Origin: a virus | Length of the DNA stretch: 20,499 nucleotides | Direction: 5' to 3' (one strand) | UHGV virus genome: UHGV-0263856 | Shown: piece by piece, positions 1 to 20,499 of the stretch | How positions within the stretch are numbered: position 1 is the first letter of the stretch | How the letters are laid out: each line of letters begins with the position of its first letter | Notes under the pieces: model-generated | Seen by the model: the letters and a program-made list of their open reading frames with translations, nothing else | Database searches by the model: none | What the model was told of the DNA's origin: nothing | Translations under genes and position numbers: made by a program

Positions 1-209
1 AACCAGATCACCAGGACGACTACTTGCGCTGATTATCTGCTGCAGCATTTCTGCCGGTTTTTCGCACGGATGTTTCCCGGGATAGTACTGCACCGGTTTA
101 TGCAGTACTATCCCGGGAAACATCCGTGCGAAAAACCGGCAGAAATGCTGCAGCAGATAATCAGCGCAAGTAGTCGTCCTGGTGATCTGGTTGCGGATTT
201 TTTCATGGG
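1..209. repeat. Palindromic duplication of an internal 3'-region fragment of the methyltransferase gene
   Basis: 1-101 is identical to 809-909 (same orientation). 103-209 is the exact reverse complement of 792-898. Arms 1-90 and 103-192 form a perfect inverted repeat around a 12-nt centre (91-102). The left arm is cut by the window start. The + strand ORF 70-285 only re-reads the methyltransferase C-terminal residues and then diverges. Confidence 0.9.
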
Positions 210-337
210 ATCCGCGATTATCCCATATACCTACTCGCTGATTGCCCCTCCGCACAGGGGGATTCACCATGCCAGTTTCTTTTAACAAACTCCCCGCAAA
301 ACAGACAACTGTCAACCGTCTGAATTGTGAGACATTT

Positions 338-363
338 AAAAAAAAGGCCCGCAAAAGCGAGCC
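338..363 (-). terminator. Intrinsic terminator downstream of the tRNA cluster
   Basis: On the - strand RNA: 7-bp stem GGCUCGC/GCGGGCC (one G-U pair), 4-nt loop, then 8 U (A-tract 338-345 on +). Confidence 0.7.
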
Positions 364-377
364 AGGGAAAATAAGTG

Positions 378-454
378 TGGCGCGTTGTACTGGATTCGAA
401 CCAGTGACCGATTGCTTAGAAGGCAATTGCTCTGTCCGGCTGAGCTAACAACGC
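378..454 (-). tRNA. argO: tRNA-Arg (anticodon UCU)
   Basis: Reverse complement reads GCGTTGT-TA-GCTC...GAGC-ATTGC-CTTCTAA-GCAAT...GGTTCGAATCC...ACAACGC-G-CCA. Cloverleaf is complete with a 7-bp acceptor stem and encoded CCA; anticodon loop CUUCUAA. Symbol is by analogy with the 933W-type ileZ-argN-argO cluster (from memory). Confidence 0.85.
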
Positions 455-467
455 AGGGTACAGATAA

Positions 468-544
468 TGGACCGCCATCGAGGACTCGAACCCCGCGCAA
501 CCAGCTTCGAAGGCTGGCGCTCTATCCTGATGAGCTAATGGCGG
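468..544 (-). tRNA. argN: tRNA-Arg (anticodon UCG)
   Basis: Reverse complement gives a cloverleaf with D-stem GCTC/GAGC, anticodon stem CCAGC/GCTGG, loop CUUCGAA, T-loop GGTTCGAGTCC and encoded CCA. The acceptor stem starts with C1-G72, which is unusual, so the exact 5' end is uncertain by 1 nt. Confidence 0.8.
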
Positions 545-551
545 TATGTGA

Positions 552-627
552 TGGTGGCCCTTGCTGGATTTGAACCAGCGACCTGGCGATTATGAGTCGC
601 TCGCTCTCACCACTGAGCTAAAGGGCC
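552..627 (-). tRNA. ileZ: tRNA-Ile2-like (anticodon CAU, lysidine type; Met not formally excluded)
   Basis: Reverse complement GGCCCTT-TA-GCTCAGTGGTGAGAGC-G-AGCGA-CTCATAA-TCGCC...GGTTCAAATCC...AAGGGCC-A-CCA. Near-identical in layout to E. coli tRNA-Ile2 (ileX) as recalled. Confidence 0.85.
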
Positions 628-676
628 GCGCGCAGAATAATAACGTTACGGAATTAATACTGCAATCTCATCCGTT

Positions 677-1726
677 TCAAACGATTAAATCCTGAACTTC
701 CCTGACTGTCTGCTCAAAACGTCCGGTCTCCAGCTCAACACCAATCGCACGACGCCCCAGTGCCATCGCCGCTTTTACCGTTGAACCCGACCCCATGAAA
801 AAATCCGCAACCAGATCACCAGGACGACTACTTGCGCTGATTATCTGCTGCAGCATTTCTGCCGGTTTTTCGCACGGATGTTTCCCGGGATAGTACTGCA
901 CCGGTTTATACGTCCACACATCGGTGTACGGCACCTGCACCGTCACACCGAAATACCGCCGCAAATTTTTATATTCACTCAGCAGTTCCATATACTGCCG
1001 GTTCAGCTCACTGTATGTGCTGACCAGCTGGTGGTGTGGCTTTTCCAGTTCCCCGCGCTGATGTTTCTCTTCTGCCACCCGGGCAAACAGCGACTGTAAT
1101 TTCAGATAATCGCTTTCGTTCGGTAGCTGCCACTGACTGGCACTGAACCAGTGCGGCACCATGTTTTTCTTTCCTGTGGCATCTGCAATCTGTTTTGCCG
1201 TTATCCCCAGGGCAGCGCGCGCATCACGAAAGTAAGCAATCAGCGGGGCCATCACATGCTGTTTCAGTGCCCTGCCCTTCGCCTCATACCCGGCATCTTT
1301 CGGACGATACGGCCCCTGATAATGTTCCGCGAACAGAATGCGCTCTGTGGCGGGGAAATACGCCCGCAGGCTTTCCTTGTTGCATCCGTTCCAGCGTCCG
1401 GACGGCTTCGCCCAGATAATATGGTTCAGCACACTGAAGCGTTCACGCATCATGATTTCGATATCAGATGCCAGGCGATGACCACAGAACAGGTAAAGAC
1501 TTCCGGCAGGTTTCAGCACCCGCCAGAACTGCGCCAGACACTGGTCCAGCCACTTCAGGTAATCATCGTCGCCCTTCCACTGGTTATCCCAGCCCTCAGG
1601 CTTCACTTTAAAGTACGGCGGGTCCGTAACTATCAGGTCAACAGAATTTTCGGGTAACGACCGGATAAATTCCAGGCAGTCGGCGTTGATTAACTCACAA
1701 CTGGATATTTTTACAGTATTAAGCAT
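677..1726 (-). CDS. DNA N6-adenine methyltransferase (beta-class, DPPY motif IV before FxGxG motif I)
   Basis: 349-aa ORF. N-terminal DLIVTDPPYF (motif IV) and C-terminal DFFMGSGST (motif I), the order typical of PF01555-type N6A/N4C MTases. No adjacent restriction gene, so it looks like an orphan phage MTase. Confidence 0.85.
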   Translation of the reverse strand: MLNTVKISSCELINADCLEFIRSLPENSVDLIVTDPPYFKVKPEGWDNQWKGDDDYLKWLDQCLAQFWRVLKPAGSLYLFCGHRLASDIEIMMRERFSVLNHIIWAKPSGRWNGCNKESLRAYFPATERILFAEHYQGPYRPKDAGYEAKGRALKQHVMAPLIAYFRDARAALGITAKQIADATGKKNMVPHWFSASQWQLPNESDYLKLQSLFARVAEEKHQRGELEKPHHQLVSTYSELNRQYMELLSEYKNLRRYFGVTVQVPYTDVWTYKPVQYYPGKHPCEKPAEMLQQIISASSRPGDLVADFFMGSGSTVKAAMALGRRAIGVELETGRFEQTVREVQDLIV

Positions 1727-1860
1727 GGATCATTAAGCCTGTCTCTGATAGGCTCATTCTGCTTTTGCGCAAAGCAGTGGGCCTGAGGTTTGCTTGTGAA
1801 CCCAACGCATGAGCAGATGGCTGGCAGGTGCCGCTAACACCCACCAGCCGCCCATTACCA

Positions 1861-1889
1861 CAAATAAAAAAGCCTTCACTGAGGAAGGC
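1861..1889 (-). terminator. Intrinsic terminator at the end of the small winged-helix ORF
   Basis: - strand RNA: GCCUUC / loop CUCAGU / GAAGGC followed by UUUUUUAUUUG. The stem overlaps the last codons of ORF 1876-2073. Confidence 0.65.
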
Positions 1890-2073
1890 GTCTGTAACAA
1901 CCGAACTGATAATCTGCCAGACCCGCCATAACAAGCTGGGTCAGTATTAACTGGCAACGTTCGCGTGAAAGGTAAGTATTATGCGCAATTTCCCCGACGG
2001 TCGCCGGTTCGGTGACGCTTAATTCATTAAACACCACTCTGGCAGTTTCGGTCATATCCTGCTGTTTTAGCAT
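1876..2073 (-). CDS. Small winged-helix DNA-binding protein (PapI/FaeA-like fold suspected)
   Basis: 65 aa with a TVGEIAHNTYLSRERCQLILTQLVMAGL helix-turn-helix-like segment. Purine-rich stretch before the ATG; bracketed by terminators on both sides, so it is a stand-alone unit. Confidence 0.45.
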   Translation of the reverse strand: MLKQQDMTETARVVFNELSVTEPATVGEIAHNTYLSRERCQLILTQLVMAGLADYQFGCYRRLPQ

Positions 2074-2191
2074 GCCTTTTCCCTTTTCTGGTTAACGTGA
2101 CATACCAATAACTCTTGTCGAAAAAGCCAGCAAGCTGAAAGACCGATATTAATAACTACCAGCGCGTTTAATGTACCGCACTTCGGGCATC

Positions 2192-2216
2192 AAAAAACCC
2201 GCTCAATGGCGGGTTT
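2192..2216 (-). terminator. Intrinsic terminator after the membrane-protein cassette
   Basis: Stem CCCGC/GCGGG (extendable to 7 bp) with a 6-nt loop, A6 on one side and T3 on the other; on the - strand RNA the hairpin is followed by UUUUUU. Sits 20 nt after the stop of 2236-3033. Confidence 0.7.
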
Positions 2217-2235
2217 AATTAATGAGGTAACAACC

Positions 2236-3033
2236 TTAACTTGTTTGATTCTGTACTTCAGTGGCCTTCTTCCCTTCAATACCTGCCTTGAAAGTCTCGA
2301 ATGTTTCAACATTAAACAGCGAAAAAGATTCGATCTGATCGAAGGGCAACACATGCCTAAACTGATAAACTGACAATGGCTCAGAAGTTAATGTGATACC
2401 CTGACTAAGGTAGTAGTCCACATAATTATGCTCAACACAAAAAGTCAGAGTATCTTTATCTCTGTACCCGGACATAAAAGGGATTAGCACCAATGTGTTA
2501 GTATCTAACTGATTGAAACGTGCCTCATCAATCATCCCCACATAGACCTTGCGAGACTTCAGTGTAACCAACAATAACAATCCACGCTCAACTGATTCAA
2601 GAAGGATATTTTCCACGGCACTATGAGCCGCAATTTCTTCAAAAATAGCCTTGCGCTTTTGTGGGTCTTTATGGTTTTTGGTTGCCTCTGATGCCTTCCC
2701 GATACTTACAATAATAGTGAAAGCTATCGACATAGCAGGGAACATGCTCAACCCAAACACTTGCATTTTGAGAAAGTCATGGGCGAAAGTAAAGGGAGCG
2801 TACCAACCAAACAAGTACGCTGGAATGTTCCAAAGTGACATTCCAGCGTACAGAACAACAACCAATAAGGCAGCGATAAGAATACCACTTATGAGAAACT
2901 CACCACCTTTCAGTGCAACATCAAAGTATGCATTCCAACCGATCGCTTTGCTTTGACGGTATCGTGACGGCAAATGGCAGTTGGTATAGTGATAACCACA
3001 AACTAAAACAATAACAATCAGCGCAGCCCACAT
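2236..3033 (-). CDS. Uncharacterised membrane protein (3 predicted N-terminal TM helices plus ~150-aa soluble C-terminal domain)
   Basis: 265-aa ORF. Hydrophobic segments WAALIVIVLVCGY, FLISGILIAALLVVVLYAGM, VFGLSMFPAMSIAFTIIVSIG. AT-rich by eye relative to the replication genes. No motif I recognise. Confidence 0.7.
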   Translation of the reverse strand: MWAALIVIVLVCGYHYTNCHLPSRYRQSKAIGWNAYFDVALKGGEFLISGILIAALLVVVLYAGMSLWNIPAYLFGWYAPFTFAHDFLKMQVFGLSMFPAMSIAFTIIVSIGKASEATKNHKDPQKRKAIFEEIAAHSAVENILLESVERGLLLLVTLKSRKVYVGMIDEARFNQLDTNTLVLIPFMSGYRDKDTLTFCVEHNYVDYYLSQGITLTSEPLSVYQFRHVLPFDQIESFSLFNVETFETFKAGIEGKKATEVQNQTS

Positions 3034-3039
3034 AGAAGA

Positions 3040-3267
3040 CTAACCCTTCTTCTTAGTACTCAATCCCTTAATATTGGCTGCGAAAGCCTTTTGCACATCA
3101 GCGTTGTTGCGATTCAAAACCATCGAACCATTACTATCAATGAAAAACTTGTCACTTTCATGCTTAGCTTCTTTTCCATCACACATGGAAGCTATATCTG
3201 CAATTTTTTTGATGATCTTCTCAGGTGAGAGGATCGCGCGAGCGGCAAGTGTTAGATATTTCGGCAT
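3040..3267 (-). CDS. Small hypothetical protein, first gene of the Q-proximal cassette
   Basis: GGAGG 6-7 nt upstream of the ATG at 3267 (MPKYLTLAARAIL...). The ORF track extends it to 3324 but that start lacks an SD. Stop is 7 nt before the start of 2236-3033. Confidence 0.55.
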   Translation of the reverse strand: MPKYLTLAARAILSPEKIIKKIADIASMCDGKEAKHESDKFFIDSNGSMVLNRNNADVQKAFAANIKGLSTKKKG

Positions 3268-3446
3268 GCTCCCCTCCGTTAACAGATAAAACACAAAAAG
3301 CACACAAACAAAGTATGCGCACATCCTAACCTATGTGGCTAACAACCACTTTCTTTTATAAGATGAGTGTATTACCTAAAGGGTAACTCGGCAATAGCAG
3401 AATAGTTTTAGCAAGGTAAAATCGATGGTCTTTCGCTCAACTTACG

Positions 3447-3475
3447 ACAAAAGATAGCCCGCTCAGCAGCAGGCT
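3447..3475 (-). terminator. Candidate tR'-like intrinsic terminator downstream of Q
   Basis: - strand RNA: AGCCUGC / UGCUGA / GCGGGCU (one G-U) followed by AUCUUUUG, about 65 nt after the Q stop. The PR' promoter itself could not be pinned down. Confidence 0.35.
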
Positions 3476-3539
3476 TTGTTTAGTTTGCCATCGTGTACAA
3501 AATCAGCAAAATATCAGATTTACACGAAATGTACGCGAT

Positions 3540-4235
3540 TTAATTGACTTTTGCAATAACCCGCCGCGAAAAGGTCGCTTTTTGTTGCGATCTTGTTTTC
3601 ATGGTATAAATCAAAGATTCGTTGTCGAGGTTCTTAAAAATGTCGCACATATCACGCCAGTAGTGCGCATAATTGTGGCTCCAGTTGTCTGACTTAACTC
3701 CACACAGTCTGGCAAGTTCCTGTCGCTGGTAGACGTCACACCCAGTAATCCTCCCCCTGACATCCTGCGCCGCCAGCCAGATTAATTTCTTCAGACGCTC
3801 AAGCGTTTTCCCTGTAATTTTTCTGGTGCCAAAATGCACCTGAAACTTATCCCACGCCCATTTCGCAATGACCACCTGATAATCCCAACTCGGATTTTCA
3901 CTGTATACCCACAGTACCCACGCCTTCTGATGCTCTTCAAGAGACAGAACGGCGCGTCGCCATGATGATGTCGAAAACTCAACCGGACTGACTAGGGCAA
4001 TTGATGAACCTTTCGCCAGCGATTGCTTTCCCGGGATCGGTGGATTATCCAGCGTTACCATTTTTCCAGTGACCTTATCGCGGTACCGGATTTTTTTACG
4101 TCTGTAACGCCCTGTATCAAACATGGCATTCTCCTGCCAGGCTTCAAGCTGACCTTTTGTTGCCCCACTCAAATCGGCGGTGGCGATAATGAGTTGCTCA
4201 CGAACAAACTGTAAATACTGGTTATTCATGCGCAC
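3540..4235 (-). CDS. Late-gene antiterminator Q-like protein
   Basis: 231 aa. Last gene of the early-right operon, immediately after rusA and before the terminator-rich late-region entry, as in lambdoid phages. Assignment rests mainly on position and size. Confidence 0.55.
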   Translation of the reverse strand: MRMNNQYLQFVREQLIIATADLSGATKGQLEAWQENAMFDTGRYRRKKIRYRDKVTGKMVTLDNPPIPGKQSLAKGSSIALVSPVEFSTSSWRRAVLSLEEHQKAWVLWVYSENPSWDYQVVIAKWAWDKFQVHFGTRKITGKTLERLKKLIWLAAQDVRGRITGCDVYQRQELARLCGVKSDNWSHNYAHYWRDMCDIFKNLDNESLIYTMKTRSQQKATFSRRVIAKVN

Positions 4236-4585
4236 TCCAGCTCTGTGATTTTTATCCCCAACCGACCACCAGGAACAGGCAGTCCGCGCACAATATTGAT
4301 TTCATCAAACTGCTCGTCGTCGATAAGCAACCCCGCATGTGTCAGTGCATCCAGTGGTGCTTTCAGAATATTGTCCAGGTCACGACGGCGCTTATCCGGT
4401 GGCTCTGCAATCACCTTTATCGCCAGCCTTCCGGACAGGCTTAATTTCAGCCGCTGCTGGCGAACAATAAGCGCCACTGCCCGGCGATAACGCTCCCCGG
4501 CTTTTGATACAAAATATGTGCTGCCACGGCGTCGCCAGTAAGTGTTCACCGTCGGCGGGTAAGGTAAAACCAAATCTATGAGCAT
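4226..4585 (-). CDS. rusA: RusA Holliday-junction resolvase
   Basis: 119 aa. LPYPPTVNTYWR...DKRRRDLDNILKAPLDAL...GGRL matches the RusA pattern including the catalytic DxRRRDLDN region. Confidence 0.85.
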   Translation of the reverse strand: MLIDLVLPYPPTVNTYWRRRGSTYFVSKAGERYRRAVALIVRQQRLKLSLSGRLAIKVIAEPPDKRRRDLDNILKAPLDALTHAGLLIDDEQFDEINIVRGLPVPGGRLGIKITELECA

Positions 4586-4597
4586 CAGTCACCTCTT

Positions 4598-5593
4598 TTA
4601 CCCAAGCACGCCAGTTGCAAAGGCGTGATCAAGAAAACGAAAAATTAAATCAACCTGAGAACCATGCTTTTCTTCGAACGCCAGAGGATCCGCATGAAGC
4701 TCGTTGTGATGCTCCCGACACAGCGGTAGCGTGAAAATATCGTGAGATTTTGTCCCCATTCCGCCCTGACCATGACCAATCAGGTGATGGGGATCGTCGG
4801 CTGGCTTACCACAACATGCACACGGCTGCGTCTTAACCCAGCGCGTGTACTTTTCATTAACCCAGCGACGACGTTTTGGGCGTAACATAAAAGACTCCGG
4901 CGACTCCGGATCCACTTTCAGCGCCAGCACCTTTTTCGCCTTATCCTGGATGATGCTGGTGGCAGTAACCGAAGGCACAAGGTCACTTTCCCGGGTGACA
5001 GACGGCACAACAGGCTTCGGTAATCTCAGTGCCTTACGGGCTGCACTTTCCGGTAAGGCATCCGCCAGGTCATTACGAATCAGCCACCAGCACAGTTCCG
5101 GCATTGTCACAACGTGACTGTCATCAAAACCAAGATCACGGCGCACAACAGACAACACCCAGCGGGCACAGTTATCCGTTGCCATTGCTTCCAGCCGTTC
5201 CGTGAACTGGTCACGGAGAAGATTGTCACAGTGCCAGCACAGACGGATTGCGCCTGGCGCGTGCCGCATTGTGGTCATGTTCTCGCTGTGCCAGTCGGAA
5301 TGAGGCCACTGACAGCCTTTTTCACGAAGTAACCAGCTCTCAAGGCATTCCACGCCACCAGCACGACGGATCACCGCCTCATGGCGGAACACGGCCCGAA
5401 CGGCAGGATCATCCGCCAGCGGTTGTGATGCTGCCGGAACGGCACCGCTGGCGAAAGATGAATAACGTTCCGGCTCAGGCTCCAGCAGGACACGCCCCTG
5501 CATAAACAGGGGCATCAGCTCTGAACCGGGCCTGAACAATACAATCCCCATACGCGGGGCAATTTCAGGGGTCAGCAGTGCTCTCACGGTCAC
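4598..5593 (-). CDS. DUF968/YdfU-NinG-like protein with C-terminal Cys/His (HNH-like) motif
   Basis: 331 aa. C-terminal CACCGKP...HHLIGHGQGG...CREHHNELH. Sits in the nin-region position between the replication genes and rusA. Confidence 0.45.
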   Translation of the reverse strand: MTVRALLTPEIAPRMGIVLFRPGSELMPLFMQGRVLLEPEPERYSSFASGAVPAASQPLADDPAVRAVFRHEAVIRRAGGVECLESWLLREKGCQWPHSDWHSENMTTMRHAPGAIRLCWHCDNLLRDQFTERLEAMATDNCARWVLSVVRRDLGFDDSHVVTMPELCWWLIRNDLADALPESAARKALRLPKPVVPSVTRESDLVPSVTATSIIQDKAKKVLALKVDPESPESFMLRPKRRRWVNEKYTRWVKTQPCACCGKPADDPHHLIGHGQGGMGTKSHDIFTLPLCREHHNELHADPLAFEEKHGSQVDLIFRFLDHAFATGVLG

Positions 5594-5639
5594 CTCAGCG
5601 AACGGTATTGCATGAACGCAGGAGAAAAAAATTCAGCCA

Positions 5640-5897
5640 TCACGCAGTAAACTCCTTCACCAGCGTTTCAAACTGGCTTACCTGTCCTTCCAGTTCCGCC
5701 ACGCAATCCACCAGCTCATCCACCGCCTTTTGTGTGCGGTGTTTTGCCTGCAGCAGATCACGAAGCGCCGGAGTAAGCTGCTTGCGGAGCGTATCTTTTT
5801 TCACGCTCGTTTTTTTCATCTGTTCAGCACAACGAAGCATCTCCTGCGCCTGCCGACGAAGTTGTTCCGGTGAAACAGTGATTGTTCTGTTGTTCAA
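5640..5897 (-). CDS. Hypothetical nin-region protein
   Basis: 85-aa ORF whose start overlaps the DnaB-like stop by 4 nt. Charged, helical-looking sequence. Confidence 0.5.
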   Translation of the reverse strand: MNNRTITVSPEQLRRQAQEMLRCAEQMKKTSVKKDTLRKQLTPALRDLLQAKHRTQKAVDELVDCVAELEGQVSQFETLVKEFTA

Positions 5898-7294
5898 AAT
5901 AAACGCTCCGTTTTACTGCCCGACATGCGGTTATTGCTGTATCTGCGCGGATTGCCCGGCGTCATGGGTGTGGAAAGAACCCGGGCACTCTCCTGGTCCA
6001 CAGGCAGAAAATGTCCGTTATGAAAACGCCGGTAAATGGTCCCGAGCGTGCCATTACGCTGTTTCGTGATGTTGATTTCTGCTATGCCTCTGGCCTGAGT
6101 TTCCGGGTTGTATACCTCATCCCTGTAAAGCATCAGAATGATGTCGGCATCCGCCTCGATTTCCCCGGAGTTTTTCAGGTCCGAGTTCATTGGGCGTTTA
6201 TTGGGTCTGGATTCCACGCCGCGGGAGAGCTGGCTCAGAGCAATCAGCGGAAAACCGCCGGATTTTGCCAGGCTTTTAAGTCCCTTTGAGATTTCCCCCA
6301 CCGCAAGGTCGTGACGCCCCGTGCTGCGGGTTTTAATCAGGCCGAGGTAATCGACCACCACCAGCGCCGTTTCCGGGTGTTTCATCCGGTGGTGCTTCGT
6401 GGTTGCACATATCTCATCAATGGTCAGGTTTGCCTGGTCCACCATCCAGATATTACGCCCCGTCATTCGTCCCACGCCCTGCGAGAAACGCGCCCAGTCT
6501 TCATCTTCAAAACGGGCAACAGACTTAAGACGGGATACCGGCATTCCACCGGCAGCAGACACCATACGTTCACCAATCTGGATGTTCGCCATCTCCATGG
6601 TGAACAGAAGCACGCCATGCCCCTGCTCAGTCACCTTGTCGATGATGTCCAGCGCAAGTTCGGTTTTCCCCATCGAAGGACGGGCGGCAATGAATACCAG
6701 GTCTCCGGGCTCCATACCGCCCGTTTTTGCGTCCAGTTCATCAATACCGGTCATCAGCGCCCTGGATTTCTCCAGTCCCTGATTGCGGCATTCAACACGG
6801 TCGACCACTTCCGGAAGGACATCATCAATGTGAACCGGCTGAATGACGCCCTTTCCGGTCGACAGTGAGGCCATCATGTTCTGCACATCCTTCAGGGCAT
6901 CCTCGGCTGCTTCACAGGTATACGCATCACGTAAATTCTGTAATGCTTCAGTCAGTGTTTTTTCTGCATCGCGCAGTGCGGCATTGCGCCGCAACGCTGC
7001 GACATAGTGCTCCAGTGAAGACTTCACCCAGGTTTTGCGTCCGGTGTCGGTAATCACCGGGGCAAGTTCCGGCATCTCATTGCACAGCAGTACGGGGTCA
7101 ATGACGCCGGATATGCGAGCCTGTCTGCAAATCCCCGCGTAAATATCCCGGTACTGACGCACAAAAAATACATCCGCCGGAAGTGTGGCCAGAATATCCA
7201 TCACTTCCGGATCGGCCCCACGCAGAAAAAACGCACCGATGACAGCGCCTTCCAGGTCATCGTTACGCCATGCCGGGGTGTTCTGGCTGGTCAT
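5894..7294 (-). CDS. Replicative DNA helicase, DnaB family
   Basis: 466 aa. Walker A ARPSMGKT, then EDEDWARF, IDYLGL, ALSQLSRGVESRPNKRPMNSDL, ADIILMLYRDEVY: collinear with E. coli DnaB motifs. Confidence 0.9.
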   Translation of the reverse strand: MTSQNTPAWRNDDLEGAVIGAFFLRGADPEVMDILATLPADVFFVRQYRDIYAGICRQARISGVIDPVLLCNEMPELAPVITDTGRKTWVKSSLEHYVAALRRNAALRDAEKTLTEALQNLRDAYTCEAAEDALKDVQNMMASLSTGKGVIQPVHIDDVLPEVVDRVECRNQGLEKSRALMTGIDELDAKTGGMEPGDLVFIAARPSMGKTELALDIIDKVTEQGHGVLLFTMEMANIQIGERMVSAAGGMPVSRLKSVARFEDEDWARFSQGVGRMTGRNIWMVDQANLTIDEICATTKHHRMKHPETALVVVDYLGLIKTRSTGRHDLAVGEISKGLKSLAKSGGFPLIALSQLSRGVESRPNKRPMNSDLKNSGEIEADADIILMLYRDEVYNPETQARGIAEINITKQRNGTLGTIYRRFHNGHFLPVDQESARVLSTPMTPGNPRRYSNNRMSGSKTERLF

Positions 7295-8199
7295 GCGGCA
7301 ACACCTCCGATACGAGAACGGTAGCTGGGCCAGTTAAACGACAACCAGTTGCGCCCGCCATCGGTGATCCTGTCGGCAATCCGGGGACTGATGAACGCCC
7401 ACAATTCTTCCGGTGAAAGATTGCTGATCAAGATAGTTGGCAAAATACCCTCATACCGGGCATTGATAATTTCCTGCAAAATGGCCATTTCAGCCGCACT
7501 GCCAAACTGAACGCCGACTTCGTCGACAATCAGCAAATCCAGTGACGCATAATGCTCAATGACGTCATCCGCTGTTTTTTCACTGTCATTCCGCCAGCAG
7601 TTTTTCACAGCCCGGGTAAGGCGCATCACGTCGGTGATCTCCACACTGGCCAGATAGTTACGGATGATGTGTTTTGCCATTGATACCGCCAGATGATTTT
7701 TCCCGGTACCGCAACTGCCGGTCATAACAAGACTGGTACCGTTCTCCAGCATATCTGGCCAGTTCTCCGCATAGCGGCGACAGGCCGCAAGATTTCTGGC
7801 TGCGTCAGGATTAACCTCCAGATAATTATCAAACTCGCAGTCCCGAAAACGCAGAGCAATTCCGGCGTTATCAGTCAGTTCTTCCGCCTTGAGGGACGAC
7901 AGTTCCATGGTCAAATCACTGGCCTCAGCGATCAAGCAGTCAGGGCAGCATGAAATTTTTTCTCTGTCCTCGCCATTACGATCGATCCACACCAGTATAT
8001 GCGTACGATATTTACCGTGTTTTTCGCAATATCCGCGACCTTCACGCATCAGGCAGGAACGATAAGGCCATGGCTTTTCGCCCTTCTGAGCAAATGCAAT
8101 CTCTGCCCGTAACTCATCCATTTCTGCCCGTAACTCATCCATTCGCGCCTGTAGTCTTGTTTGTTTCTCACGTTGGTCAATCGTCATCATCGCTGTCAC
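7291..8199 (-). CDS. DnaC/IstB-like AAA+ helicase loader with Cys-rich N-terminus
   Basis: 302 aa. GSCGTGKNHLAVSMA (Walker A), LLIVDEVGVQ (Walker B), C-terminal WLSFNWPSYRS like DnaC. N-terminal Cys cluster CEKH...CCPDC. Contains the 21-bp tandem duplication at 8103-8144. Confidence 0.8.
   Translation of the reverse strand: MTAMMTIDQREKQTRLQARMDELRAEMDELRAEIAFAQKGEKPWPYRSCLMREGRGYCEKHGKYRTHILVWIDRNGEDREKISCCPDCLIAEASDLTMELSSLKAEELTDNAGIALRFRDCEFDNYLEVNPDAARNLAACRRYAENWPDMLENGTSLVMTGSCGTGKNHLAVSMAKHIIRNYLASVEITDVMRLTRAVKNCWRNDSEKTADDVIEHYASLDLLIVDEVGVQFGSAAEMAILQEIINARYEGILPTILISNLSPEELWAFISPRIADRITDGGRNWLSFNWPSYRSRIGGVAA
8103..8144. repeat. 21-bp tandem duplication inside the DnaC-like gene
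   Basis: ctgcccgtaactcatccattt / ctgcccgtaactcatccattc, 20 of 21 identical and in frame, encoding MDELRAE twice. Confidence 0.9.
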
Positions 8200-8200
8200 C

Positions 8201-9187
8201 TCAGAATGTCAATTTGTTACTGGATTTACCGAATTTGTCAGACATGGCTCCCAGGCCAGCCAGGACATCGACCTGTCGCTGTCGCCCACCTCCGTGAGCG
8301 GCTGGCTGTTGCCAGTAATCTTCGAAGTGACGATCGGGTCCAAAGAACGTCGCAGCCTGCTTCACGAACTGTGTGCCGGTATTTCCTGTAGCACGTACCC
8401 AGGCGGCATACCGCTTCACGCCATCAAGCATGGTCTCCGGTTTTATTCCCTCCCTGATACGGGCTTTCCAGGCTTTGAAGGCCGCTGACTTGGAATTGCC
8501 ACCAGCACGTTTGGGATATTCCTGCCAGGCCTGTTCAAATTCCGGTGAATATTCCTGTCGGGCAGAACGCGCAGACGCGTCAGCGGATGCATCAATAGTG
8601 TTTTTAGTCTCCGTTGTAATCTCTGTAGTAATCTCTGTATTTGTATCAACATTCGGCGTATCCCCTGTTCCGTTATGACGTCGGGGGGTGTTCCGTTTTA
8701 ACGTAATAGCTGTATCGCTGATTGCATTATTGCTGTTACTTTCTGGCGAAACAGAAGAAGGTGTGGTGATGACCGCAATTGCCTGTGGGTTGATCCCGAC
8801 AAACAAAATATTGCTGCATTTCACCCCATCGAGCATTTCCACCGTGCGTAAATCCAGAGTAATAAACCCTGCATCGCGCAGACGCTTCAGCGCATCTGCG
8901 GTTTCCCTTTTCCCGAAACCAAACTGCTCAGCAAACGCCTGGTAGCTTCTTTGCAGTTTGTCGCCCTGAAAACGCTTGCGATATCCCAGCAACGCTCCGG
9001 TGTGCTCATCCCTGACCTCTGTCGGGCGGTACCAGTAAACGATCTCTGAAAGCAGAGCGATAGCCGTCGCATCCGGACGCCCACTGGGTAGTCGAATATA
9101 TTTCCACCAGTTCGCAGGTGTAACATTGCCGGAAATATTAATTTGACCAATAGCCATAACTTCCGGTGTGGGGGCGTAACGGCTCAT
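8201..9187 (-). CDS. Replication initiator (lambda O-like role)
   Basis: 328 aa. Directly upstream of the DnaC/DnaB-like genes, with a mid-gene low-complexity linker (TEITTEITTE, DASADASARSA) that carries iteron-like repeats, as in lambda where ori lies inside O. Confidence 0.55.
   Translation of the reverse strand: MSRYAPTPEVMAIGQINISGNVTPANWWKYIRLPSGRPDATAIALLSEIVYWYRPTEVRDEHTGALLGYRKRFQGDKLQRSYQAFAEQFGFGKRETADALKRLRDAGFITLDLRTVEMLDGVKCSNILFVGINPQAIAVITTPSSVSPESNSNNAISDTAITLKRNTPRRHNGTGDTPNVDTNTEITTEITTETKNTIDASADASARSARQEYSPEFEQAWQEYPKRAGGNSKSAAFKAWKARIREGIKPETMLDGVKRYAAWVRATGNTGTQFVKQAATFFGPDRHFEDYWQQPAAHGGGRQRQVDVLAGLGAMSDKFGKSSNKLTF
8605..8652. repeat. Iteron-like 12-bp direct repeats (candidate ori) inside the initiator gene
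   Basis: tagtctccgttg / taatctctgtag / taatctctgtat / ttgtatcaacat: four adjacent 12-mers, the central two near-perfect. Confidence 0.45.
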
Positions 9188-9483
9188 ACAACCTCCTTCC
9201 GCGGCATGAGAATTGTGTAGCCACGCGCAGGTTGTAGTCTGGCTTTTGCATCAATAGTAAGCGTTGCAATTTTTCGGATATGAAGATAACCAGCTCTTTC
9301 CAGTGCCAGGGTTTCCCTGAATATCGCTTGCTTAGAACAACAGCAGAAATCAGCAAGCACCTGATGATCAATAACTCTCTCGCCTTCACCGTCTGAAGAA
9401 CCCGACATCAAAACACGCAACATAATTAGGCGCTGAATCGGGTTATCGAAAGCACATCCGCACACAAACTGAAAACAGTTCAC
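9184..9483 (-). CDS. Hypothetical HTH protein (cII-position)
   Basis: 99 aa. HQVLADFCCCSKQAIFRETLALERAGYL resembles an HTH. Start and stop each overlap neighbours by 4 nt. Confidence 0.4.
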   Translation of the reverse strand: MNCFQFVCGCAFDNPIQRLIMLRVLMSGSSDGEGERVIDHQVLADFCCCSKQAIFRETLALERAGYLHIRKIATLTIDAKARLQPARGYTILMPRKEVV

Positions 9484-9704
9484 GCCACACCTCCCAGACG
9501 CTTAAACATTTTTCCAGACAGAAATACCGCCAGAGGGTAACTGATGGTGTAGCTACGCCCCTGTAGTTCGCACACGACTTTCTGGCTTTCAGCGTTGACT
9601 AGGCAAACCCGCAGAACGTGACCGTTGCTGGTGGCGAACCACTGCCCCACACGGGGGCAACGGTTGTATCGGTGATACAGGGAATTAACGATGTGGCGGA
9701 TCAT
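9480..9704 (-). CDS. Hypothetical protein
   Basis: 74-aa ORF, translationally coupled (4-nt overlaps) on both sides. Confidence 0.4.
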   Translation of the reverse strand: MIRHIVNSLYHRYNRCPRVGQWFATSNGHVLRVCLVNAESQKVVCELQGRSYTISYPLAVFLSGKMFKRLGGVA

Positions 9705-9895
9705 GGACGCACCTCCACCGTAGTTACGTATTTAACCGGGCTACCTTTCATTGAGATGGTTTCACACATCTCTGCCGCTTTCAGTTCCGCTGTTTTTCTG
9801 GATTTATAGCGACGGTGCCAGACAGATACATCCGTGCGAACTGATACATCGTTTCTGTATTCCGTAGTGGAGATGATGATTTCGTAACTAATCAT
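9701..9895 (-). CDS. Hypothetical protein
   Basis: 64-aa ORF, translationally coupled on both sides. Confidence 0.4.
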   Translation of the reverse strand: MISYEIIISTTEYRNDVSVRTDVSVWHRRYKSRKTAELKAAEMCETISMKGSPVKYVTTVEVRP

Positions 9896-10443
9896 GGGCG
9901 AACCTCCTTGTCAGAACCATTCAGCCTGGAATCAACAAGTGCAGCGCCAAAAACAGCATCACCAACACGGTCGTACAGTTTGCTAGCCAGCGGAGATTCA
10001 ACGGCCTTAAGCATTGGATAAAGCTGGCTTGTCCAGATTTGATGGATTTCACGCAAATGCAGGTATACGCCTCTGGCGTTTCGTGCGACAGCTGACATAT
10101 CAGACGCATCGGCACCTGATAAACTCTTCTCCATCAGGTTAAAGGCGTTGATGTATGCCTCTTTGAACCGGGCTGCACGTTTGCCAGTAAAGCCCATAGC
10201 AAGGAACGCGAAGCCATCACGGGTGATTTGATAGCAAGGTAGTTTGCGGCCTGTGCAATCGGTGTAATCACTCACCGAAAAATTGCGGGCAGTGAATGAT
10301 GCGGAGCATTCAAGCGTGCGGATCTTTTTCAGTACATCGTCATGACGCTTGGAGAAGAAGTTGGCAACAGCCAGGGATGAAGTAACAGCCTGACCATCAA
10401 CGATGGCAATTTCAGGTTGAGTGAGGGTTGGGATCGTAGCCAT
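9892..10443 (-). CDS. Rha-family phage regulatory protein
   Basis: FSKRHDDVLKKI and DGFAFLAMGFTGKRAARFKEAYINAFN match the Rha domain as recalled. GGAGG 8 nt before the ATG at 10443. The ORF track extends in frame to 10743 but that N-terminal 100 aa is low-complexity with no SD. Confidence 0.6.
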   Translation of the reverse strand: MATIPTLTQPEIAIVDGQAVTSSLAVANFFSKRHDDVLKKIRTLECSASFTARNFSVSDYTDCTGRKLPCYQITRDGFAFLAMGFTGKRAARFKEAYINAFNLMEKSLSGADASDMSAVARNARGVYLHLREIHQIWTSQLYPMLKAVESPLASKLYDRVGDAVFGAALVDSRLNGSDKEVRP

Positions 10444-10828
10444 GATGGCAGCCTCCGTTGACTGTGGAAAACTTCCACCACCGGAGCTGCGAAACTCACT
10501 GGTGGCAGACTGAACAGGGTTCGCAGTACCGGCGTCAACGGAAACCGGCGAGCCTTTCGGCTCCCCTGCCCAGCCCACCATAATTCTGGCGTGCGTGAGC
10601 GCGGACGATAAAAAAGACGCTGGCGCGTCATATATCGCCGTTGACAATTCCGGGCTGCGACCCCCGGCACCCGCTTTATAAGGTGCAGAGACAGTGTAAC
10701 GTCCCGAAATTGCAGAATCAATATTTGGTCTTGAAATGATCATATAGCTGCTGATATCTTTAGAACTGTTCTTGGATGTTTCGGAGCCGTTTTATGCGAA
10801 ACAGCTCCCCGTTATTGATGTTGAGTGA

Positions 10829-10852
10829 GCCGGGTTACTCCCGGCTTTTTTT
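10829..10852 (+). terminator. Intrinsic terminator oriented opposite to the flanking genes
   Basis: + strand: GCCGGG / TTACT / CCCGGC followed by T7. It abuts the stop codon of the convergent - strand gene 10852-11559. Confidence 0.6.
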
Positions 10853-11559
10853 CACCGCTGCCAACCAATAACCTGAAATAACCCCATTTTCGGGTGATAC
10901 CAGCGAGTCCCTCGCGGTTCTGCTTCCTCCATAACCCGATAAAAAGCAGCCATAAACGGTTCCACAGCAACAATTGCGCGACGTGACAACAATCCGTCCG
11001 GCGTCATGAACTCATGGGTGTCTGTAGGAATCTGATAGGCGTTCACCAGATTGCGGCATTTATCATCTGACAAACCGGTTTTTGCTTTCAGTTGGCGATA
11101 TCCGGCATAGCCCTCACGAATAGTGCCCTTTTTAATTTGCTCGACTGTTTCAGCAACGTGGCTGACTTTTTCTTCCACCTGAGTGATCCGTTTCTGTTGG
11201 CGAACGGCTTCAAGAGCCATCGCGGCAACCATTTCGATTTCGCTCATTGGCTTACGGATCTGTTCTTCCAGTTCGCGCCAGCGATCTACCAGGCGAGCAG
11301 TGAATTCAGGACAGAGCTGTGCGACGACAATGATGCTGTCGCGCTTACCTTGTTCTCCTTCAAACAGGTAATGCTCATATTGAACTTTAAAACCTAAGTT
11401 ATTGATTCTTTCGGAAACCTCAATTTGAGGAGACCGGACAACGCCACCTTTGGCTAATGTTTCAATAGTGCGTTTCACATTGTCATGACGTTTACCCACC
11501 AGCTCTGCGATCTCAACGCTGGTCATGGATGCTTTGCCGTTAAAAATTGCGGTGTTCAT
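10852..11559 (-). CDS. Rha/antirepressor-like phage regulatory protein
   Basis: 235 aa. N-terminal SVEIAELVGKRHDNVKRTIETL (Rha-type motif). AGGAGA 6 nt before the ATG at 11559. Confidence 0.55.
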   Translation of the reverse strand: MNTAIFNGKASMTSVEIAELVGKRHDNVKRTIETLAKGGVVRSPQIEVSERINNLGFKVQYEHYLFEGEQGKRDSIIVVAQLCPEFTARLVDRWRELEEQIRKPMSEIEMVAAMALEAVRQQKRITQVEEKVSHVAETVEQIKKGTIREGYAGYRQLKAKTGLSDDKCRNLVNAYQIPTDTHEFMTPDGLLSRRAIVAVEPFMAAFYRVMEEAEPRGTRWYHPKMGLFQVIGWQR

Positions 11560-11783
11560 TGTTGGTCTCCTGTGGGCTTGTCATCTTCTGTATTCGCTAG
11601 ACTTGGGTGTGTATATGGAATGCTCGGATCCAGATGACAAAGAATGGCAACATCCTCCGGAACACCTCGCGTTTTCCACTTTCCAACACCTTGACTGCCA
11701 CGAGGCCTTCCTTTCTTTGGGAACCTGCGACCAATAGCGGCATTGGTTTTAAATTGAATTTTTAATATTTCATAAAGGGTCAT
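11556..11783 (-). CDS. Small basic ORF in the Cro position (no recognisable HTH)
   Basis: 75 aa, Arg/Lys/Gly/Pro-rich. Its stop overlaps the next ATG (ATGA). Weak SD; coding status uncertain. Confidence 0.3.
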   Translation of the reverse strand: MTLYEILKIQFKTNAAIGRRFPKKGRPRGSQGVGKWKTRGVPEDVAILCHLDPSIPYTHPSLANTEDDKPTGDQQ

Positions 11784-11894
11784 TCTTTAGTCTCACACCA
11801 GATACTTTGTTATCCAACGATGTTAACCACGGGAATCCAAAGTATCAAGAAATTCTGTTACTTTAGTATCAACAGCCATGAGAGGAGAAGAAAA
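11784..11894. promoter_or_regulatory. Divergent immunity control region (OR with PR/PRM candidates)
   Basis: Motif copies at 11803-11811 (reverse orientation), 11840-11848 and 11864-11872. Candidate - strand PR: -35 TTGATA (rc of 11843-11848), 17-nt spacer, -10 TAACAT (rc of 11820-11825). Candidate PRM -10 TAGTAT at 11864-11869. Confidence 0.5.
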
Positions 11895-12551: not shown

Positions 12552-12654
12552 CCAGACACAAAACACAAAAAGAAACCAAAGTATCAAAAATCACTTGCCA
12601 CACCTTGATACCTTAGTTACCATAAAACAAAGTTCGTAACTGAGGTATCATCTC
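12552..12654. promoter_or_regulatory. OL/PL-like control region
   Basis: Motif copies at 12579-12587 (aagtatcaa), 12605-12612 (ttgatacc, reverse orientation) and 12643-12650 (ggtatcat). Candidate -35 TTGCCA at 12595-12600. Confidence 0.45.
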
Positions 12655-13155: not shown

Positions 13156-13286
13156 TGACATAATCGCCGCTTCGCCCTTCAAGGTACATGCGAACATTTT
13201 TATCAATCATTGCGGAAACAGTCTCAATATGAAAACACTTCTGAGACTCGCTATATAGCAGAACATATAAGTCAGCTGAGGAAGCC

Positions 13287-13652: not shown

Positions 13653-13730
13653 CAACAAATATGCCCTGAACGTTTATTGCGGTTTTATCGCCGGGGATTG
13701 TTACAACCTTAATCCACAGGAGGCTTTATT

Positions 13731-13844
13731 GTGACTTTTATAAAGAATATGGCATCACACAAGACCGCCTGCCTTATTGCACAATACGGTGAAAATTACA
13801 TGCATATTGCCTGCTTATTTCTGCGTAAAGCATACGGGAGATAA
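13731..13844 (+). CDS. Candidate small ORF (37 aa) upstream of 13847
   Basis: GGAGG 7 nt before the GTG at 13731 (in-frame ATG at 13749). Stop is 2 nt before the next ATG. Below the ORF-track length cutoff. Confidence 0.3.
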   Translation: MTFIKNMASHKTACLIAQYGENYMHIACLFLRKAYGR

Positions 13845-18433: not shown

Positions 18434-19747
18434 ATGGATAAAGTCAAATATCCAACAGGCGTCGAAAACCACGGCGGCACATTACGCATCTGGTTTAATT
18501 TTAAAGGTAAACGTGTCAGGGAAAATCTTGGTGTCCCTGACACTGCCAAGAACAGGAAGATCGCCGGGGAACTGCGGACATCAGTATGTTTTGCCATCCG
18601 CACAGGAAGCTTTGATTATGCTGCACAGTTCCCTGACTCCCCCAACCTTCAGGCTTTTGGGGTAAGTAAAAAAGAAATTACGGTGAAGGAACTTGAAGAA
18701 AAGTGGCTGGATCTGAAACGAATGGAAATCTCTGCAAATGCATTCAATCGCTATGAATCCGTTGCAAGAACGATGGTTCCGAAAATTGGAGGCAGTAGAC
18801 TGGTGTCATCGGTAACCAAAGAGGAATTGCTGTATATCAGGAAAGATTTGCTTACCGGGTATCAGAATTCAACGAAAAACAAAGCAGCAGCAAAAGGACG
18901 GAGCGTCGTTACTGTAAATTATTACATGACGACAATCGCTGGAATGTTTCAGTTTGCTGCAGATCACGGTTACTTAGAAGCAAATCCCTTCCAGGGAATT
19001 AAGCCTCTTAAAAGAGCCAGGGCAGAGCCAGATCCGCTAACTCGTGACGAATTTATTCGCCTGATAGATGCTTGCCGACATCAGCAGACGAAAAACCTGT
19101 GGTCATTGGCTGTGTACACAGGAATGCGTCACGGTGAACTGGTCTCCCTGGCCTGGGAAGATATCGATCTGAAGGCAGGAACAATTACCATCAGGCGCAA
19201 TTATACGAAACTTGGTGAGTTCACTCTACCGAAAACTGAAGCAAGCACAAACAGGGTTGTGCACCTTATCCAGCCCGCTATCAGTGTCCTGAAAAATCAG
19301 GCTGAAATGACAAGACTGGGTAAGCAGTACAACATCAAGGTGCAACTACGTGAATATGGACGTTCAGTGAACCATGAATGTACTTTCGTGTTTAACCCTC
19401 AAGTGGTTAGAAAAAGCGAACAGGTAGGTTTTGTCTACAAAGTCGATTCTGTAGGTGACTCATGGGAAACAGCCATTAAGCGTGCAGGGATCAGGCATCG
19501 AAAGGCATACCAGTCACGACACACTTATGCGTGCTGGTCATTATCTGCCGGAGCAAACCCAAGCTTCATTGCCAGCCAGATGGGCCATGCAAGTGCCCAG
19601 ATGGTATTCAATGTATACGGAGCATGGATGACTGACAGCAATGCAGAACAGATCGCAATGCTGAATCAGAAGCTGACAGATTATGTCCCAATGATGCCCC
19701 ATAGTCACCAAAGTGACACCAGAGGCTTATTAAAATCAGTAAGTTAA
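18434..19747 (+). CDS. int: Tyrosine-type site-specific integrase
   Basis: 437 aa. GGAGG SD. C-terminal catalytic region TGMRHGEL...SRHTYACW...GHAS...VYGAWM (R, HxxR, Y). Confidence 0.9.
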   Translation: MDKVKYPTGVENHGGTLRIWFNFKGKRVRENLGVPDTAKNRKIAGELRTSVCFAIRTGSFDYAAQFPDSPNLQAFGVSKKEITVKELEEKWLDLKRMEISANAFNRYESVARTMVPKIGGSRLVSSVTKEELLYIRKDLLTGYQNSTKNKAAAKGRSVVTVNYYMTTIAGMFQFAADHGYLEANPFQGIKPLKRARAEPDPLTRDEFIRLIDACRHQQTKNLWSLAVYTGMRHGELVSLAWEDIDLKAGTITIRRNYTKLGEFTLPKTEASTNRVVHLIQPAISVLKNQAEMTRLGKQYNIKVQLREYGRSVNHECTFVFNPQVVRKSEQVGFVYKVDSVGDSWETAIKRAGIRHRKAYQSRHTYACWSLSAGANPSFIASQMGHASAQMVFNVYGAWMTDSNAEQIAMLNQKLTDYVPMMPHSHQSDTRGLLKSVS

Positions 19748-19775
19748 TCCTTAATACCCGTCATGTTAACTGCGT
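19745..19775. other. Prophage-host junction (int-proximal att site) within the yecE-like reading frame
   Basis: The int stop is at 19745-19747. The yecE-like frame is open from 19717 and reads ...RHVNCVEGNTT across the junction. The exact core cannot be defined because the other prophage end is outside the window. Confidence 0.4.
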
Positions 19776-20499
19776 GGAGGGTAACACCACGCTTTATGCC
19801 CTGCCGAAACCCGAGGTTGTCCTGCGCTGGCGTGAGCAGACCACAGATGACTTCCGCTTCTGTTTTAAGTTTCCGGCGACCATTTCGCATCAGGCAGCAT
19901 TACGGCATTGCGATGATTTAGTGACTGAATTTTTGACCCGCATGTCACCGTTGGCTCCGCGCATTGGACAATACTGGCTGCAACTGCCTGCCACATTCGG
20001 CCCACGGGAGCTGCCTGCGCTTTGGCATTTTCTCGATTCTCTTCCCGGTGAATTTAATTATGGGGTGGAAGTCCGCCATCCACAGTTTTTCGCCAAAGGG
20101 GAAGAGGAACAAACGCTTAATCGCGGTTTACATCAGCGCGGCGTTAATCGGGTGATTTTAGACAGCCGCCCGGTTCATGCAGCACGTCCACACAGTGAAG
20201 CTATTCGCGACGCTCAACGAAAAAAACCTAAAGTTCCGGTACATGCTGTACTGACGGCGAAAAATCCACTGATCCGTTTTATCGGTAGTGATGATATGAC
20301 GCAAAACCGGGAGTTATTTCAGGTCTGGTTACAAAAATTAGCACAGTGGCATCAGACCACTACGCCTTATCTTTTTTTACATACGCCAGATATTGCCCAG
20401 GCCCCGGAACTGGTACATACCCTGTGGGAAGACTTACGTAAAACGCTTCCAGAGATCGGAGCAGTTCCGGCTATTCCACAGCAATCTTCTCTTTTCTGA
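19774..20499 (+). CDS. yecE: YecE-like DUF72 protein, 5' end displaced by the prophage
   Basis: 241-aa ORF running to the window end. The upstream frame has no ATG between the stop at 19714 and GTG 19774. Identification as yecE is from memory of the protein and of yecE as a known Stx-phage integration site. Confidence 0.55.
   Translation: MEGNTTLYALPKPEVVLRWREQTTDDFRFCFKFPATISHQAALRHCDDLVTEFLTRMSPLAPRIGQYWLQLPATFGPRELPALWHFLDSLPGEFNYGVEVRHPQFFAKGEEEQTLNRGLHQRGVNRVILDSRPVHAARPHSEAIRDAQRKKPKVPVHAVLTAKNPLIRFIGSDDMTQNRELFQVWLQKLAQWHQTTTPYLFLHTPDIAQAPELVHTLWEDLRKTLPEIGAVPAIPQQSSLF

What the first reader, a model, noticed from the sequence alone, without database searches (positions are those of the whole stretch)
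1..209. Near-perfect ~200-bp palindrome made of methyltransferase gene fragments, at the position where Stx phages carry stx
1-101 duplicates 809-909 and 103-209 is the exact reverse complement of 792-898, giving a hairpin with arms of at least 90 bp around a 12-nt centre. Both breakpoints fall inside the methyltransferase CDS, so neither copy is a functional gene. Perfect palindromes of this size are unstable in wild-type E. coli (SbcCD). It is therefore either a fold-back assembly or sequencing chimera at a contig end, or a recent real inversion-duplication at the late-region moron site.
Basis: seen in the sequence. Interest (0 to 1): 0.8.

Follow-up and report, generated by a model that had tools for sequence, protein, structure and literature searches.

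The report
Fold-back chimera at a contig end
The first 209 bases of this E. coli prophage window are a real, near-perfect hairpin built from two copies of a piece of the neighbouring methylase gene, but no other assembly has it and it is most likely a sequencing or assembly chimera stuck on a contig end, not biology.

Summary
Window 1-101 is an exact direct copy of 809-909, and 102-209 is an exact inverted copy of 792-899. Together they form a hairpin with 92-nt arms and an 8-nt loop (-133 kcal/mol, z = -31.8).

Everything from 210 to 20499 is an ordinary lambdoid prophage integrated in yecE. It is collinear and 99.9% identical with four complete E. coli genomes. In those genomes the base before position 210 continues into the native intergenic region, nanS-p and the lysis genes.

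Neither chimeric joint occurs anywhere else. No match came from 5,426 complete E. coli genomes, 50,697 phage records, IMG/VR, JGI metagenomes or GTDB species genomes. The native joint 32-mer is in at least 120 IMG/VR contigs.

Both joints are strand switches inside one 700-bp stretch, with 1 and 0 nt of microhomology. The copies are 100% identical to the adjacent gene.

The window ends on a gene boundary on the right. On the left it lacks the whole late half of the prophage, so position 1 is probably a contig end.

Best reading: an in-vitro template-switch or fold-back chimera kept at a dead-end contig tip (about 0.75). A real, very recent direct-inverted-direct duplication cannot be excluded without reads (about 0.17). 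The position at the stx site is incidental. Interest is low.

The parts
1..101 (+). Direct copy of window 809-909: a methylase gene fragment, antisense on the + strand. It forms the left arm of the hairpin (1-92) plus the loop (93-100).
   Evidence: 100% identical over 101 nt. Position 1 corresponds to 809 and is not a gene boundary in any frame.
93..100 (.). Unpaired centre (ccggttta) of the hairpin. Joint J1 lies at 101/102: native 909 is joined to the complement of native 900, with 1 nt (T) of microhomology.
   Evidence: The native sequence continues ...ccggtttat|acgtcc, while the window reads ...ccggtttat|gcagtact.
102..209 (+). Inverted copy of window 792-899: the right arm of the hairpin plus 17 nt further (193-209).
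   Evidence: Exact reverse complement.
209..210 (.). Joint J2: the complement of native 792 is joined to native 210, with 0 nt of microhomology. The joint creates a GGATCC at 208-213.
   Evidence: Comparison with L001 5990-6010. Neither parent sequence contains GATC at the joint.
210..377 (+). Native intergenic sequence, identical to related prophages. In those prophages it is preceded by a further ~320 nt of intergenic DNA and nanS-p.
   Evidence: Window 210 = L001 6001 = L003 3001, and the alignment is collinear to 20499. Annotation.
378..627 (-). Three tRNA genes: Arg-TCT 378-454, Arg-TCG 468-544, and Met/Ile2-CAT 552-627. This is the argO/argN/ileZ cluster of lambdoid late regions.
   Evidence: Named tRNA-Arg, tRNA-Arg and tRNA-Ile in RefSeq and phage records.
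677..1726 (-). Intact N6/N4 DNA methyltransferase gene (349 aa), the source of both fragments.
   Evidence: PF01555, E = 1.9e-44. Corresponds to WP_021519715.1 in L001 and L003.
792..909 (-). Source segment inside the methylase gene from which 1-209 was copied (residues ~273-312).
19729..20499 (+). The yecE' (DUF72) gene at the prophage-chromosome junction. Its stop codon is the last base of the window.
   Evidence: This shows the right end is cut at a gene boundary, whereas the left end is not.

Best explanation
The 209-base block is not part of the bacterial genome. It is a chimeric DNA molecule, or a read made from one, that was created in vitro and kept by the assembler as the terminal extension of a contig that had nowhere else to go.

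SHOWN
- The block consists only of sequence from the adjacent methylase gene.
- It has two strand-switch joints. J1 joins native 909 to the complement of 900. J2 joins the complement of 792 to native 210.
- Downstream of 210 the contig is ordinary.

INFERRED
- A DNA polymerase copying this stretch switched strand twice. This could have happened during end repair or fill-in, strand-displacement amplification or PCR in library preparation.
- The first switch was a snap-back of a 3' end at 909 onto its own strand 9 nt upstream. The second was a jump onto a template end at 210.
- The outer breakpoints, 210 and 909, are 700 bp apart, which is the size of one library fragment.
- This region (tRNAs, intergenic DNA, nanS-p) is multicopy among the lambdoid prophages of a single genome. 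The true path was therefore ambiguous or broken, and the chimeric reads survived as the contig tip.
For: 1. Window 210-20499 is collinear and 99.88-99.99% identical with complete genomes. In those genomes 210 is preceded by native intergenic DNA, nanS-p, holin and lysis genes.

2. A query spanning both joints (40-300) is covered at >=80% in 0 of 5,426 complete E. coli genomes and in 0 of 50,697 phage records.

3. The exact 32-mers across J2 and J1 are absent from GTDB species genomes, IMG/VR and JGI metagenomes. As a positive control, the native 32-mer across position 210 is in >=120 IMG/VR contigs.

4. No protein in a 5.8-billion-sequence collection carries the junction peptides.

5. The copies are 100% identical to the window's own methylase gene, whereas other alleles differ. 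The origin is therefore local and has accumulated no divergence.

6. Microhomology is 1 nt at J1 and 0 nt at J2. Verified spontaneous rearrangements in Salmonella had >=8-12 bp; shorter overlaps were attributed to library chimeras (PMC3411829).

7. Inverted chimeras drawn from the same short stretch of DNA are the documented signature of library-preparation and MDA artefacts (PMC10908179; PMC3946424; PMC1855051).

8. The window stops on the yecE stop codon on the right. On the left it stops at a non-boundary, with about half the prophage missing. This fits a provirus cut that ran into a contig end.

9. Both flanks of position 210 occur 2-5 times per genome, so this is a place where assemblies break.
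Against: - No reads, coverage data or source record were available, so the contig-end status and low read support are inferred, not seen.
- A real direct-inverted-direct duplication would also break a short-read assembly at this spot, so the terminal position does not discriminate strongly.
- Two chimeric joints within 108 nt had to survive the assembler's error removal. That is easier if they were well supported.
- In MDA chimeras over 70% of joints have 2-21 nt of complementarity, so a 0-1 nt overlap is not the commonest in-vitro outcome either.
- Among 143 other loci fetched here, including roughly 80 true contig ends, none carried a terminal palindrome. Such artefacts are not routine.
Confidence: 0.75

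Rival explanations
1. This is a real, very recent replication template-switch rearrangement in this strain. It would be a tandem inversion duplication (inverted triplication): ...210-909 (direct), 900-792 (inverted), 210-onward (direct). The left-hand direct copy continues beyond position 1. The assembly broke there because the duplicated 700 bp collapses in a short-read graph.
For: - The visible order is direct-inverted-direct, with two strand-switch joints close together. This is the architecture described for TID/ODIRA products (PMC4689423).
- Perfect identity of the copies fits a very recent event.
- A chromosomal palindrome of this size is tolerated in rec+ E. coli (PMC4213011).
- A real duplication would also put the structure on a contig end.
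- Survival of both joints in the assembly suggests non-trivial read support (inference).
Against: - The joints have 1 and 0 nt of microhomology and no pre-existing short inverted repeat at either turn-around point. TID/ODIRA joints use such repeats, and verified enterobacterial rearrangements had >=8 bp.
- E. coli has no classical end-joining pathway (established knowledge).
- The structure is not seen in any of 5,426 complete genomes, including four with a 99.9% identical prophage.
- The palindrome carries a fitness cost and there is no evident selection for duplicating three tRNAs and a methylase tail.
Confidence: 0.17
2. This is a cloning or ligation chimera: unrelated restriction or sheared fragments joined in a library, suggested by the GGATCC at 208-213.
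For: - J2 has no microhomology and creates a BamHI site.
- Ligation chimeras are a known source of split reads (PMC3411829).
Against: - Neither parent sequence has GATC at the joint: native ...catgggg tcgg... and ...cctga atccgc.... It is therefore not a BamHI/Sau3AI joint.
- All three pieces come from one 700-bp stretch of a ~5-Mb genome. Random ligation would essentially never give that.
Confidence: 0.03
3. This is a natural hairpin end: a covalently closed telomere of a linear prophage (N15-type), or a hairpin-capped broken chromosome end read through by the sequencer.
For: Reading around a closed hairpin gives a terminal palindrome at a contig end (established knowledge). The fold is extremely stable.
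Against: - The element is an integrated lambdoid prophage with a tyrosine integrase, an excisionase and a yecE junction.
- No protelomerase is annotated in the 99.9% identical relatives.
- The hairpin is made of an internal gene fragment, and a second joint (J2) lies only 108 nt from the turn. A telomere does not explain that.
Confidence: 0.02

Closest known systems
In-vitro inverted (fold-back) chimeras of sequencing libraries: hairpin fill-in palindromes (Star et al. 2014, PMC3946424), PDSM chimeric reads after sonication or enzymatic fragmentation (Chen et al. 2024, PMC10908179), and MDA inverted chimeras (Lasken & Stockwell 2007, PMC1855051)
   Same: Part of the molecule is the reverse complement of immediately neighbouring sequence. 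The events are intramolecular or local. The copies are perfectly identical. The structure is absent from the real genome of relatives.
   Different: There are two joints rather than one. Microhomology is 0-1 nt, where PDSM and most MDA joints use a short complementary stretch. The library type of the source is unknown.
Tandem inversion duplication / ODIRA inverted triplication (Brewer et al. 2015, PMC4689423; from my own knowledge, the Salmonella TID described by Kugelberg, Roth and colleagues)
   Same: Direct-inverted-direct order, with two turn-around joints produced by strand switching at a replication fork.
   Different: Those joints lie at pre-existing short inverted repeats, and there are none here. 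The inverted segment here is only 109 nt. Copy number and the left-hand copy cannot be seen.
Engineered long palindromes in the E. coli chromosome (246-bp interrupted palindrome in lacZ; Leach laboratory, PMC4213011, PMC3315005)
   Same: Similar total length (192-209 nt) and a short central spacer. It would be expected to extrude a hairpin on the lagging-strand template and be cut by SbcCD.
   Different: Those palindromes were inserted deliberately and their behaviour was measured. This one has no evidence of existing in a cell.

Membership tests
Sequencing/assembly fold-back chimera | The junction sequences are absent from independent assemblies of the same or near-identical DNA | tested here: met
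   0 of 5,426 complete E. coli genomes and 0 phage records cover 40-300. The J1 and J2 32-mers are absent from three contig collections. The native 32-mer is present in >=120 contigs.
Sequencing/assembly fold-back chimera | The chimeric part is an exact copy of nearby sequence from the same molecule | tested here: met
   101/101 and 108/108 identities to the window's own methylase gene, 580-800 bp away.
Sequencing/assembly fold-back chimera | It sits at a contig end or dead end | tested here: inconclusive
   The right end of the window is a gene boundary (the yecE stop). The left end is not a boundary, and the late half of the prophage is missing. The source contig was not found.
Sequencing/assembly fold-back chimera | The junctions are supported by few or duplicate reads, with normal 1x depth over the copied segment | not testable with these tools
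   No reads or coverage are available.
Tandem inversion duplication / inverted triplication (TID, ODIRA) | Direct-inverted-direct arrangement of the same segment | tested here: inconclusive
   The order 809-909 / 900-792 inverted / 210-onward is present. The left direct copy is cut at 101 nt by the window start.
Tandem inversion duplication / inverted triplication (TID, ODIRA) | The turn-around joints lie at pre-existing short inverted repeats (quasi-palindromes) | tested here: not met
   J1 shares 1 nt and J2 shares 0 nt. The native sequence at 891-915 and at 200-215 has no complementary stretch in the required register. The requirement is described in PMC4689423.
Tandem inversion duplication / inverted triplication (TID, ODIRA) | Two- to three-fold copy number of the segment | not testable with these tools
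   This needs read depth or a long read.
Hairpin telomere of a linear prophage (N15 type) | A protelomerase gene and a linear, non-integrated replicon | tested here: not met
   The prophage is integrated in yecE and has an integrase and excisionase. No protelomerase appears among the annotated genes of 99.9% identical relatives.
Moron / toxin cargo at the stx site | An intact cargo gene between the tRNA cluster and nanS-p | tested here: not met
   The only ORF in 1-340 is the chimeric 71-aa methylase fragment. Relatives have only non-coding DNA and a pseudo-ORF there.

The most novel reading that the evidence does not exclude
The palindrome exists in the cell. On this reading, a lambdoid prophage at yecE has just undergone a double strand-switch during replication that used essentially no microhomology. 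The product is a direct-inverted-direct duplication of the tRNA cluster and methylase 3' end, with a 92-bp-arm perfect palindrome at the late-region cargo site. That would be a snapshot of an unstable intermediate of the kind proposed to seed gene gain and rearrangement next to stx.
Probability: 0.15. Interest if true: 0.45.

Novelty: not a real feature. Interest (0 to 1): 0.1.

Why it matters
If it is an artefact, as is likely, the consequences are practical.

- The first 209 bases should be trimmed.
- The 71-aa ORF at 70-285 would otherwise be annotated as a partial DNA methylase (it scores on PF01555).
- No inference about the stx/moron site should be drawn from it.

If it were real, it would be a rare natural example of a long perfect palindrome and a template-switch inverted triplication caught before decay in a wild E. 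coli prophage. That would bear on how late-region cargo sites rearrange.

Tried and rejected
1. The first search with 1-700 appeared to show the structure in 929 genomes at '85% covered'. Inspection of the coordinates showed otherwise: those hits are 210-700 plus 1-101 matching the intact methylase gene, not the palindrome. The junction-spanning query then gave zero.

2. I tried to find the source contig through products unique to it. The chimeric ORFs 70-285 and 1-285 and the PGAP-style yecE' are not on record. The Prodigal-style yecE' and the DnaC-like protein are on record in more than 1,000 blocks, but only long, normal contigs are returned, and the 10-kb flank does not reach the locus.

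3. A protein search with the 94-aa chimeric peptide returned only ordinary methylase fragments. Candidates with higher coverage (P0040, P0003) are normal methylases.

4. A BamHI/Sau3AI cloning joint was rejected because neither parent has GATC at the joint.

5. A mosaic boundary at 210 was rejected. Relatives, including O104:H4, are collinear across it. Homology to Stx phages ends at 337-340, not at 210.

6. I scanned 143 fetched loci for terminal palindromes as evidence of a recurrent artefact at this locus. None was found.

7. A literature search for contig-end palindrome artefacts in assemblies returned nothing directly citable.

Full report
OBSERVATION

- Window 1-101 is a 100% direct copy of 809-909.
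- Window 101-212 is 99% complementary to 789-900; the match is exact for 102-209 vs 792-899.
- Within the block itself, 1-92 pairs perfectly with 101-192 around an 8-nt loop at 93-100.

Folded as single-stranded DNA, the block has -133 kcal/mol against -28.4 +/- 3.3 for shuffles (z = -31.8). It is therefore not a chance feature.

Both fragments come from the 3' third of the N6/N4 DNA methyltransferase gene on the minus strand (677-1726, PF01555, E = 1.9e-44). The full-length gene is intact.

ANATOMY OF THE JOINTS

Written in the coordinates of the undisturbed sequence, the contig reads [809->909][complement 900->792][210->20499].
- J1 (window 101/102) joins 909 to the complement of 900. It shares a single T.
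- J2 (window 209/210) joins the complement of 792 to 210. It shares nothing (one search compared).

The GGATCC at 208-213 is created by J2. Neither parent has GATC there, so this is not a restriction-ligation joint.

Both joints are strand switches, and all three pieces lie within one 700-bp stretch. Random ligation of unrelated fragments cannot explain that. The event was local template switching, either in a tube or in a cell.

The copies are identical to the window's own methylase gene. Alleles in other prophages differ by 1-5%.

CONTEXT

The window is the early half of a lambdoid prophage read backwards. From left to right it contains:
- three tRNA genes (378-627);
- the methylase;
- Q, RusA, DUF968, DnaB and a DnaC-like gene, and Rha/cI-like regulators;
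- the excisionase, and the integrase at 18434-19747;
- the yecE' junction gene, whose stop codon is the last base of the window.

From 210 to 20499 the window is collinear with complete genomes. It has 1 mismatch in 6,700 nt against strain AR_0372. Against strain 167 it has 19 substitutions plus a 6-bp indel in 20,290 nt.

In those genomes the base before 210 continues into about 320 nt of intergenic DNA, then nanS-p, holin, lysozyme, Rz and terminase.

Homology to Stx2 phages ends at 337-340, next to the tRNAs. The block does lie in the interval that holds stx in Stx phages. No cargo gene is present there, and relatives carry only non-coding DNA.

A TRAP

The first database search seemed to find the structure in 929 genomes. 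The coordinates showed that those hits were 210-700 plus 1-101 aligned to the intact methylase 600 bp downstream.

IS THE STRUCTURE SEEN ANYWHERE ELSE? NO.

- A query spanning both joints (40-300) is covered at >=80% in 0 of 5,426 complete E. coli genomes and in 0 of 50,697 phage records.
- The exact 32-mers across J2 and J1 are absent from GTDB species genomes, IMG/VR and JGI metagenomes.
- The native 32-mer across position 210, used as a positive control, is in at least 120 IMG/VR contigs.
- The chimeric ORFs are not on record as gene products.
- A search of 5.8 billion proteins with the 94-aa chimeric peptide found only ordinary methylase fragments.

IS POSITION 1 A CONTIG END?

The source contig could not be retrieved, so this is inference.
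- The right end of the window coincides with a stop codon, which suggests a provirus cut at a gene boundary.
- The left end is not a boundary in any frame.
- The whole late half of the prophage is missing. A provirus caller would have included it had the contig continued.
- Both sides of position 210 are present 2-5 times per genome in strains carrying this prophage. This is a region where short-read assemblies break.

INTERPRETATION

The best-supported reading is an in-vitro fold-back or template-switch chimera retained at a dead-end contig tip.

Library-preparation and amplification chemistry is documented to make this kind of molecule:
- hairpin fill-in palindromes (PMC3946424);
- chimeric reads carrying the inverted complement of adjacent sequence after sonication or enzymatic fragmentation (PMC10908179);
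- MDA chimeras, more than 85% of which are inverted and mostly intramolecular (PMC1855051).

The outer breakpoints, 210 and 909, are 700 bp apart. That is the size of a single library fragment. It fits a snap-back at one fragment end followed by a jump onto the other end, but this step is inferred.

In a study of Salmonella, verified spontaneous rearrangements had junction microhomologies of at least 8-12 bp. Shorter overlaps were attributed to library chimeras (PMC3411829).

THE MAIN RIVAL

The rival is a real, very recent tandem inversion duplication (direct-inverted-direct), as described for TID/ODIRA products (PMC4689423).

Points in its favour:
- The visible order fits.
- A real duplication would also break an assembly at this spot.
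- A chromosomal palindrome of this size is tolerated in rec+ sbcCD+ E. coli at about 0.6% cost per generation (PMC4213011).

Points against it:
- There is no pre-existing inverted repeat at either joint, which is a defining feature of those mechanisms. I tested this here and it is not met.
- The structure is absent from all relatives.
- The prior favours the artefact: chimeric reads are far more common than a fixed, unselected inverted triplication.

I put the artefact at about 0.75 and the real rearrangement at about 0.17. Cloning chimera and hairpin telomere are both contradicted by the sequence. Read depth and junction-spanning reads would settle the question.

VERDICT

The structure is most likely not a real genomic feature. 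The link to the stx site is incidental. Interest is low.

Noticed in passing
window 19729-20499 and 18434-19747: The prophage is integrated in yecE (DUF72), a known lambdoid and Stx-phage attachment locus. The window's last base is the yecE' stop codon, so the window looks like a provirus call clipped at a gene boundary.
   Followed up: partly
window 19782-20403 versus 210-19700: 12 of the 19 substitutions relative to strain 167 fall in the ~620 nt of the yecE part, while the ~19.5-kb prophage body has only 7. The same prophage therefore sits in a different chromosomal background.
   Followed up: no
window 14011-14016: A 6-bp insertion (AGATGA) relative to strain 167, located between small early-region ORFs.
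   Followed up: no
window 552-627 (minus strand): ARAGORN calls this tRNA-Met (CAT). RefSeq and phage records call the same gene tRNA-Ile (ileZ). It is probably a lysidine-modified tRNA-Ile2, and different pipelines give it different names.
   Followed up: no
window 70-285 (+) and 1-420 (minus frame 0): Because the palindrome is in frame with the methylase codons, both strands are open across it. The 71-aa ORF at 70-285 scores on PF01555 (E = 3.6e-11), so it would be annotated as a partial methylase.
   Followed up: yes
L039 (IMGVR_UViG_2681813268_000014) 2690-2883 and 4798-4991: A 194-nt direct repeat of the native intergenic segment, containing the equivalent of window 210, flanks an IS3-family element (orfA 3984-4286, orfB 3130-3948). 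This is far longer than a normal target-site duplication.
   Followed up: partly
IMG/VR loci L052, L057, L073, L076, L099, L103 and others: In several loci the native 32-mer lies within ~50-250 nt of a locus end. For L057, L073 and L076 the locus is the whole contig, which fits frequent assembly breaks around this multicopy tRNA/nanS-p region. For L052, L099 and L103 the locus is shorter than the contig, so the end shown is not a contig end.
   Followed up: no
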